Part shown: piece by piece, positions 50,291 to 50,501 of the stretch | How positions within the stretch are numbered: the first letter of the stretch is position 1 | How the letters are laid out: each line of letters opens with the position of its first letter | DNA from: Octopus vulgaris | Taxonomy: Eukaryota | Assembly: GCA_951406725.2 (NCBI GenBank) | Contig: OX597833.1 | Location: 64,728,001 to 64,792,000, forward strand | Direction of reading: 5' to 3' | DNA: 64,000 nt | Notes under the pieces: generated by a model | Told to the model about the DNA's origin: nothing | Seen by the model: only the letters and a program-made list of their open reading frames with translations | The model's database searches: none | Translations under genes and position numbers: made by a program

Positions 50291-50501
50291 AATAAATAAA
50301 TGGAGTTTAACGCAGGTGTAATCAAATACTTTTACTTTCTAAAATGTCTTATTGACGAGTTTCGTTTTTTTCACTTTCCTGAAGAGAAGATTGCATTGTT
50401 TATACCATTTATTCTTTTGAATAGTATCAGTGGAATTTTCGAAACATGTGTCGAAAGTAAGAATATTTGATTACACCTGCGTTAAACTCCATTTATTTAT
50501 T
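50291..50501. repeat. ~49-bp inverted repeat bracketing a hammerhead
   Basis: aataaataaatggagtttaacgcaggtgtaatcaaatacttttactttc (50291-50339) pairs with 50453-50501, two mismatches. Confidence 0.92.
50373..50458 (+). ncRNA. Type I hammerhead ribozyme motif with extended stem II
   Basis: actttc-CTGAAGA-gaagattgcattg...cagtggaattttc-GAAAC-atgt-GTC-gaaagt. Perfect 6-bp stem I, G-C closing stem II, intact core, GUC triplet. Confidence 0.8.

What the first reader, a model, noticed from the sequence alone, without database searches (positions are those of the whole stretch)
50291..50501. Best-preserved hammerhead: long stem II, enclosed by an inverted repeat starting at its cleavage site
Seen: an intact CUGAAGA/GAAAC/GUC core, a 6-bp stem I, and a ~55-nt stem II (gaagattgcattg/cagtggaattttc, atac/gtat, tattc-tttt-gaata). 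The sequence just 3' of the predicted cut (after 50452) has an inverted copy at 50291-50339 ending in actttc, which competes for stem I. Inference: the best candidate for an active ribozyme here. The inverted copy begins at the predicted RNA 5' end, as expected if cleaved RNA was reverse transcribed, and it could act as a conformational off-switch.
Basis: partly seen in the sequence, partly recalled or inferred. Interest (0 to 1): 0.7.

Follow-up and report, generated by a model that had tools for sequence, protein, structure and literature searches.

The report
Penelope retroelement stump with hammerhead ribozyme
This is a cut-short, back-to-back copy of a common Penelope-type jumping gene whose end repeat carries a predicted self-cutting RNA; its mirror arm does stop at the predicted cut site, but sister copies stop at scattered places, so that match is likely chance and not a switch.

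Summary
The hammerhead motif and inverted arm are real, but the arm is about 205 nt (about 50134-50339), not 49. The locus is a truncated head-to-head insertion of a young, abundant Penelope-like retrotransposon with Hydra-clade motifs (2864-nt unit, intact 775-aa RT/GIY-YIG frames elsewhere). The ribozyme is the family's standard dimer-type motif, with covariation across sister families. The cut-site boundary is not special. Genome-wide, 5 truncations fall at the cut, against 4 and 6 at two control positions. In three partly overlapping samples, 56/56, 83/84 and 17/17 arms reaching the cut run through it. A mild broad excess of ends near the cut leaves room for a minority of cleaved templates. 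What is fixed are the outer ends: 113 of 117 classifiable inverted pairs join one arm ending at +56 to one ending at +205, likely two reverse-transcription start sites, one per target strand. This scan noted that rule before in other families of this genome, and one-sided tails are published. A side finding: the family lacks the zinc-finger linker proposed to direct (TA)n targeting, yet 320 of 374 ends lie in (TA)n. Cleavage is untested.

The parts
50084..50136 (.). (AT)n microsatellite, left part of the likely target
   Evidence: 320 of 374 family 3' ends lie in TA-rich flanks against 10% of window 16-mers
50134..50339 (-). Inverted 5'-truncated arm: family positions +1..+205 counted from the cut; outer end at the long fixed end (+205)
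   Evidence: (93% to the reference copy)
50134..50285 (-). One-sided tail (+57..+205, about 149 nt), part of the 5' untranslated region upstream of the element's start codon (boundaries approximate)
50339..50340 (.). Head-to-head junction; one shared base (C), arm end +1 or +2 joined to forward position -114 or -113
50340..50503 (+). Forward 5'-truncated arm: family positions -113..about +56; outer end at the short fixed end
   Evidence: 96.5% to the reference copy
50373..50458 (+). Type I hammerhead motif: stem I 50373-78/50453-58, core 50379-85, stem II 50386-50440, GAAAC 50441-45, self-complementary stem III 50444-51, predicted cut after 50452
50503..50517 (.). (TA)n microsatellite, right part of the likely target

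Best explanation
This is a non-coding, 5'-truncated head-to-head insertion of a young Penelope-like retrotransposon with Hydra-clade motifs, and the predicted hammerhead is that family's standard end-repeat motif; the inverted arm likely stops at the predicted cut site by chance. Shown: family identity, 2864-nt unit, intact RT/GIY-YIG frames in other copies, two fixed outer ends (+56, +205) used one per arm, scattered inner ends, (TA)n targets, and shared variants between the two arms of one insertion. Inferred mechanism: the element's endonuclease nicks both strands of a (TA)n tract. One 3' end primes reverse transcription at +205 and the other at +56 on RNA from one donor, probably helped by the short AU runs at both sites. 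Both cDNAs usually run through the ribozyme site, so the template was mostly uncut there. They stop at variable points and are joined 5' to 5', often at a few shared bases. The ribozyme is predicted to cut only as a dimer or with protein help, and this lone stump is likely inert.
For: Family: 2599 candidate places, top 40 at 98-99%. Unit and frames. Ends: 151 arms at +56 and 152 at +205 among 385 distinct arms. Of 147 distinct inverted junctions, 113 are long/short, 3 short/short, 1 long/long and 30 involve internal or unresolved pieces (binomial p 9e-29 on 113 of 117). The same rule appears in two sister families at 72-76% identity: 14 of 14 and 9 of 9 resolvable pairs among 30 loci each, read by eye. 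Read-through: 56 of 56, 83 of 84 and 17 of 17 arms reaching +1 pass it. Cut-site truncations are 5 against 4 and 6 at control positions, and three of the four cut-site loci share one microhomology junction. Paired arms share 71 derived variants against 10.5 expected, 39 pairs. Structure: 92.6% of cells paired against 32-49% when slid, with a both-side change in stem I. Literature: inverted truncated copy and one-sided tail (PMC8557442, PMC3846280); both-strand cleavage, two internal start sites and ribozyme-independent insertion in vitro (PMC11167929); dimer-type motifs (PMC4209133).
Against: 5' ends show a mild broad excess near the cut: 13 against 4.4 expected within 15 nt either side among long arms (P 0.001), and 4 against 0.6 at +1..+22 among 29 copies that hold the frame start (P 0.003). 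The windows were chosen after seeing the data, and a third sample gave 14 against 9.5 (P 0.10). A minority of cleaved templates is therefore not excluded, and this copy could be one. Denominators for the two control patterns were not counted. Read-through fits a re-ligated circular RNA equally well. Shared variants could also come from gene conversion between arms. The published start sites (PMC11167929) are not homologous to the target, whereas these carry AU runs. Clade assignment rests on motifs and by-eye comparison, not a tree, and one Hydra feature (the linker) is missing.
Confidence: 0.82

Rival explanations
1. One reading: the inverted arm of this copy was reverse transcribed from ribozyme-cleaved RNA, so the enzyme ran off a real 5' end at +1.
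For: The arm ends at +1 or +2. There is a mild excess of ends at +1..+22 in two samples. One other long arm, L037, also starts at +1.
Against: No excess at +1 against two control positions. 0 of 56 unselected long arms and 0 of 17 frame-bearing copies end at +1. Ends 5' of the cut are also raised (-3 to -16), which cleavage cannot produce; palindromes and ribozyme structure there offer other causes. PMC11167929 found no RNA-seq ends at the cut for an Anolis element.
Confidence: 0.12
2. The ribozyme does cut in vivo at both end repeats, the unit-length RNA is ligated into a circle, and reverse transcription starts at +56 and +205 on the circle and runs through the resealed junction. This changes the template, not the identity of the locus.
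For: It explains read-through and more-than-unit copies such as L107, L414 and L428. It also explains why the ribozyme fold is conserved. It is proposed in PMC4209133.
Against: Read-through transcripts of partial tandems explain the same data without cleavage; ribozyme-dead mutants still insert in vitro (PMC11167929). No call here bears on circular RNA.
Confidence: 0.2
3. The inverted arm arose by fold-back or self-priming of one cDNA, or by later DNA rearrangement, not by two priming events.
For: Paired arms share variants. Some junctions sit on palindromes with equal arm ends (L088, L104, L246). Self-priming on an antisense template is proposed in PMC3846280.
Against: Fold-back copies existing cDNA, yet 57 of 113 long arms end at or beyond +50 and share almost no sequence with the short arm. 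Here the inverted arm holds 149 nt absent from the forward arm. Both outer ends sit at fixed sites in (TA)n.
Confidence: 0.1
4. This copy has been co-opted as a regulated ribozyme whose inverted arm is a conformational off-switch.
For: The arm is predicted to abolish stem I, and the core is intact.
Against: The architecture is the family's routine insertion product. The copy carries ordinary private substitutions. Stem I is already disfavoured without the arm, and stem III needs a second molecule.
Confidence: 0.02

Closest known systems
Hydra clade of C-terminal-endonuclease Penelope-like elements, e.g. Hydra-1_Obim (PMC8557442; passages and supplement parts seen)
   Same: Unit under 3 kb, single RT + GIY-YIG frame, DKT motif, GLYRDD, C-terminal CxxC and CxH, no CCHH, type I hammerhead in the end repeat, (TA)n insertion; similar N-terminus by eye.
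   Different: A different family. The CxCX5C linker is absent. RWK reads RWL. Stem II is 55 nt against 7 bp plus an 8-nt loop in Hydra-1_Obim. The tail is about 149 nt against the 30-40 bp described for the group.
Poseidon of Anolis carolinensis (PMC11167929; main text read)
   Same: Two internal start sites downstream of a hammerhead that define a tail; AT-rich targets; the ribozyme site is copied through.
   Different: Different clade. Its start sites lie inside the frame, 30-40 nt apart, and are not homologous to the target; here they lie before the start codon, 149 nt apart, at short AU runs.
Dimer-type type I hammerheads of metazoan Penelope-like elements (PMC4209133; first half read)
   Same: Conserved core, G10.1-C11.1 pair, 6-bp stem I, short palindromic stem III; opposite-strand pairs of motifs 100-700 bp apart already noted.
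   Different: Stem II is much longer than the 7-8 bp described; no extra base between positions 9 and 10.1. Long stem II recurs in at least five other motif types in fetched flanks.
L1 twin priming and dual priming (PMC2837659; passages seen)
   Same: Two cDNAs primed on opposite target strands and joined 5' to 5'.
   Different: Here both start sites are fixed and internal, there is no poly(A), inversion occurs in about two thirds of sampled arms, and about half of pairs overlap in sequence.

Membership tests
Type I hammerhead ribozyme | Core CUGANGA, GAAA, NUH | tested here: met
   core columns invariant in 18 aligned copies apart from N7 (copies were picked by a core pattern, so this is partly built in)
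Type I hammerhead ribozyme | Stems I and II with covariation; G10.1-C11.1 | tested here: met
   one both-side change in stem I, two in stem II (one may reflect gap placement); 176 of 500 shuffles reach the count of 3 pairs, 0 of 500 reach the cell count, a control that ignores relatedness
Type I hammerhead ribozyme | Stable stem III as a monomer | tested here: not met
   pair probability 0.03-0.04; self-complementary instead, as in dimer-type motifs; a sister family has a perfect palindrome
Type I hammerhead ribozyme | Site-specific self-cleavage | not testable with these tools
   needs an in vitro assay
Endonuclease-bearing Penelope-like elements | Single frame with RT and GIY-YIG endonuclease | tested here: met
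   775-aa frames in L384-L386; 51 homologues at 27-40% identity; motifs match the published alignment by eye. Pfam and PDB gave no informative hit
Endonuclease-bearing Penelope-like elements | Partial-tandem end repeats, inverted 5'-truncated copy, one-sided tail | tested here: met
Hydra clade | DKT in place of DKG; length under 3 kb; C-terminal endonuclease | tested here: met
Hydra clade | RWK motif | tested here: inconclusive
   reads RIRWL; 31 of 51 homologues match the strict pattern
Hydra clade | No CCHH; CxxC and CxH around the conserved E and N | tested here: met
Hydra clade | CxCX5C linker before the endonuclease | tested here: not met
   absent in three intact frames and five other copies; present in 47 of 51 homologues. 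Filed as a Hydra-like family that has lost it, not as a typical member
Hydra clade | Canonical hammerhead and (TA)n insertion | tested here: met
Hydra clade | Placement in the RT phylogeny | not tested
   named reference proteins were seen only as text in a supplement and were not used in a tree
Non-LTR retrozymes | Head-to-tail tandem non-coding units each with a hammerhead | tested here: not met
   single motif in a head-to-head stump of a coding element

The most novel reading that the evidence does not exclude
This young family has lost all four cysteines of the linker zinc finger proposed to aim Penelope-like elements at (TA)n, yet still targets (TA)n. It always primes one target strand at +56 and the other at +205 of RNA from one donor, at AU runs that could pair with the nicked microsatellite. 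Obligate two-site, two-strand priming guided by RNA-DNA pairing, on RNA not cut by its own conserved ribozyme, would be the normal insertion route, and intact frames make it testable.
Probability: 0.4. Interest if true: 0.55.

Novelty: new member of a known kind. Interest (0 to 1): 0.3.

Why it matters
The locus itself is ordinary: one of at least several hundred stumps. The family-level counts bear on an open question, how Penelope-like elements make inverted insertions with one-sided tails and what their hammerheads do. Genomic copies show that reverse transcription nearly always crosses the ribozyme site and that the two arms start at two different fixed sites. The missing linker is a natural test of the proposal that it directs microsatellite targeting.

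Tried and rejected
Rfam scan: only microsatellite-driven miRNA hits among the 150 of 259 rows shown, no hammerhead. Expression: no RNA holder listed on record; four guessed-RNA runs are contigs only and cannot show ends, strand or level, so they are no evidence either way. Pfam and PDB sequence searches of the family protein: nothing informative. Naiad, Neptune, Nematis and Poseidon assignments were considered and rejected on domain order and RT motifs. A retrozyme reading was rejected because the element is coding and not tandem. The ATAC/GTAT helix as a conserved feature was rejected. No host gene was evident among 97 open frames of at least 110 aa in the window, most of them repeats (read by eye, not scanned). 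A search of earlier findings by this sequence found nothing. Searches failed technically and gave no data.

Full report
Observation. It was the only strict hit in the window, and none arose in 20 block shuffles. The ribozyme alone folds only modestly better than shuffles (z -1.64); with the arm the region is one long hairpin (z -15.9). The 49-nt arm matches at 47 of 49 positions and ends at the base after the cut, but it is the inner part of an arm of about 205 nt reaching the (AT)n tract at about 50134.

What it belongs to. A DNA search of the window's 2.8-Gb genome gave 2599 candidates, the 40 scored at 98-99% identity. Exact 21-25-nt patterns gave 448, 721 and 350 matches. Locus L107 holds end repeat, frame, end repeat and tail with a period of 2864 nt, and L384-L386 hold intact 775-aa frames. 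The protein has DKT, GLYRDD, a C-terminal GIY-YIG-type domain, CxxC and CxH and no CCHH. These are the marks given for the Hydra clade in PMC8557442 (passages; supplement alignment compared by eye). It differs from the published Hydra-1_Obim in its ribozyme. The host is inferred to be an octopus-like cephalopod; the closest named protein is from Argonauta. I number positions from the cut (+1 is the next base). The window copy is +205..+1 inverted, joined at one shared base to -113..+56 forward, between two (TA)n tracts.

Is the cut-site boundary special? Three tests say no sharp signal. First, of 448 exact +1..+25 matches, 16 lack C before +1. Eleven of these are point changes and 5 are truncations at 4 loci, three of which share one microhomology junction. 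The same design at -8 and +7 gave 4 truncations of 7 hits and 6 of 20; their denominators were not counted, and the window copy itself is not in the 448. Second, in samples taken in genome order, 56 of 56 long arms and 83 of 84 arms of a partly overlapping sample that reach +1 run past it. I fetched the first 100 listed places and all but two, not all matches. Third, among 30 copies holding the frame start (29 distinct junctions), none begins at +1 and 17 of 17 that reach it run through the upstream ribozyme. Against my reading, ends are mildly concentrated near the cut: 13 against 4.4 expected within 15 nt for long arms, 4 against 0.6 at +1..+22 for frame-bearing copies, and 14 against 9.5 in the third sample. 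The windows were chosen after seeing the data. Part of the excess lies 5' of the cut or on palindromes, so stalling and microhomology are likely causes, but a minority of cleaved templates is possible.

What is fixed. Among 385 distinct arms from 266 loci, 151 end at +56 and 152 at +205. Of 147 distinct inverted junctions, 113 pair one of each, 3 pair two short and 1 pairs two long; 30 involve internal or unresolved pieces and were left out of the test. Two sister families at 72-76% identity keep equivalent ends, and all their resolvable pairs are long/short: 14 of 14 and 9 of 9 among 30 loci each, by eye; the second set was selected on long arms. In 57 of 113 pairs the long arm stops at or beyond +50, compatible with twin priming on one RNA (PMC2837659, passages). 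The rest overlap and need two RNAs or reuse of one. In 39 overlapping pairs the arms share 71 derived variants against 10.5 expected from unrelated arms, which points to one donor, or to gene conversion. Junction records show 1-6 shared bases in 140 of 273, counted from both sides. 320 of 374 outer ends are TA-flanked against 10% background, and both start sites carry short AU runs.

The ribozyme. Across 18 copies from several subfamilies, 92.6% of cells pair against 32-49% in slid controls, with both-side changes in stem I and stem II. These counts reflect a few subfamily events, not independent ones. Stem III is unstable alone, but its 8 nt pair between two molecules in the cofold, and one sister family has the perfect palindrome. 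This is the dimer design of PMC4209133 (first two of four parts read), where a single motif did not cleave and dimers cleaved weakly. 94 of 195 arms spanning the motif keep an intact core, so this copy is typical. Stem II of 49-69 nt occurs in at least five other motif types in the fetched flanks. The arm is predicted to remove stem I, but so is the family's own upstream sequence.

Mechanism. Shown: structure of the insertion, fixed outer ends, scattered inner ends, read-through, shared variants, targets. Inferred: nicking of both target strands, priming at +205 and +56, mostly uncut or resealed template, joining of the two cDNAs. PMC11167929 (main text read) shows both-strand cleavage, two internal starts that define the tail, and insertion unaffected by ribozyme-dead mutations for an Anolis element. 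PMC4209133 proposes circles, which my data cannot exclude. PMC3846280 (passages) describes the inverted copy with optional tail and proposes self-priming.

Novelty. The architecture is published. Six paper searches showed no paper that counts the one-arm-per-site rule or read-through in genomic copies. The library lacks most subscription journals. Of bioRxiv 10.64898/2026.07.22.740005 I read only part 1 of 5, and its supplements are closed. Earlier unreviewed notes of this scan report the same two-site rule in other families of this genome; my counts were noted before that look-up. New here are the family, its 149-nt tail and the loss of the linker cysteines: absent in the three intact frames, present in 47 of 51 homologues, while (TA)n targeting persists. 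PMC8557442 links that linker to such targeting.

Verdict. A real hammerhead motif in an ordinary stump of a new Hydra-like Penelope family. The cut-site boundary is probably coincidence and the off-switch is unsupported. Interest 0.3.

Noticed in passing
L384-L386, frame residues about 640-665: The CxCX5C linker zinc finger is replaced by a cysteine-free stretch of the same length in intact frames, while 47 of 51 homologues keep it; (TA)n targeting persists.
   Followed up: partly
window 50520-50720 and 4560-4780, - strand: Two stumps of another repeat with a minimal hammerhead (cores at 50651, with U4 changed to C, and 4696, intact); the first shares the (TA)n tract at the right end of this insertion.
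   Followed up: partly
L072, L049, L004, L137, L149, L105, L209, L308, L324 flanks: Several unrelated type I hammerheads with 49-69-nt stem II and 4-nt palindromic stem III; long stem II looks widespread in this genome.
   Followed up: no
L031/L032, L033, L039: The same 115-nt mini-insertion (+205..+148 inverted, +1..+56 forward) at three loci with different flanks, once as a tandem pair; recurrent microhomology joining or a small mobile derivative.
   Followed up: partly
L297-L326: A second young sister family (98-99% among copies, 72% to this one, 1637 candidates) with the same ribozyme fold and equivalent short and long ends.
   Followed up: partly
window 679-1529, 10461-11385, 17335-17820, 25375-25733, 38605-39206: Tandem arrays of a 174-185-nt unit; no hammerhead was detected in them by my descriptors.
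   Followed up: no
window 30996-31439 (-), 61238-61681 (-), 20199-20654 (+): Open frames that by recall resemble the end and the RT region of a non-LTR retrotransposon and a Helitron-type helicase fragment; labels recalled, not tested.
   Followed up: no
family positions +125..+135 and -116..-125: Local clusters of 5' ends (12 of 95 and 6 of 40 long arms at risk), the second on a T run.
   Followed up: no
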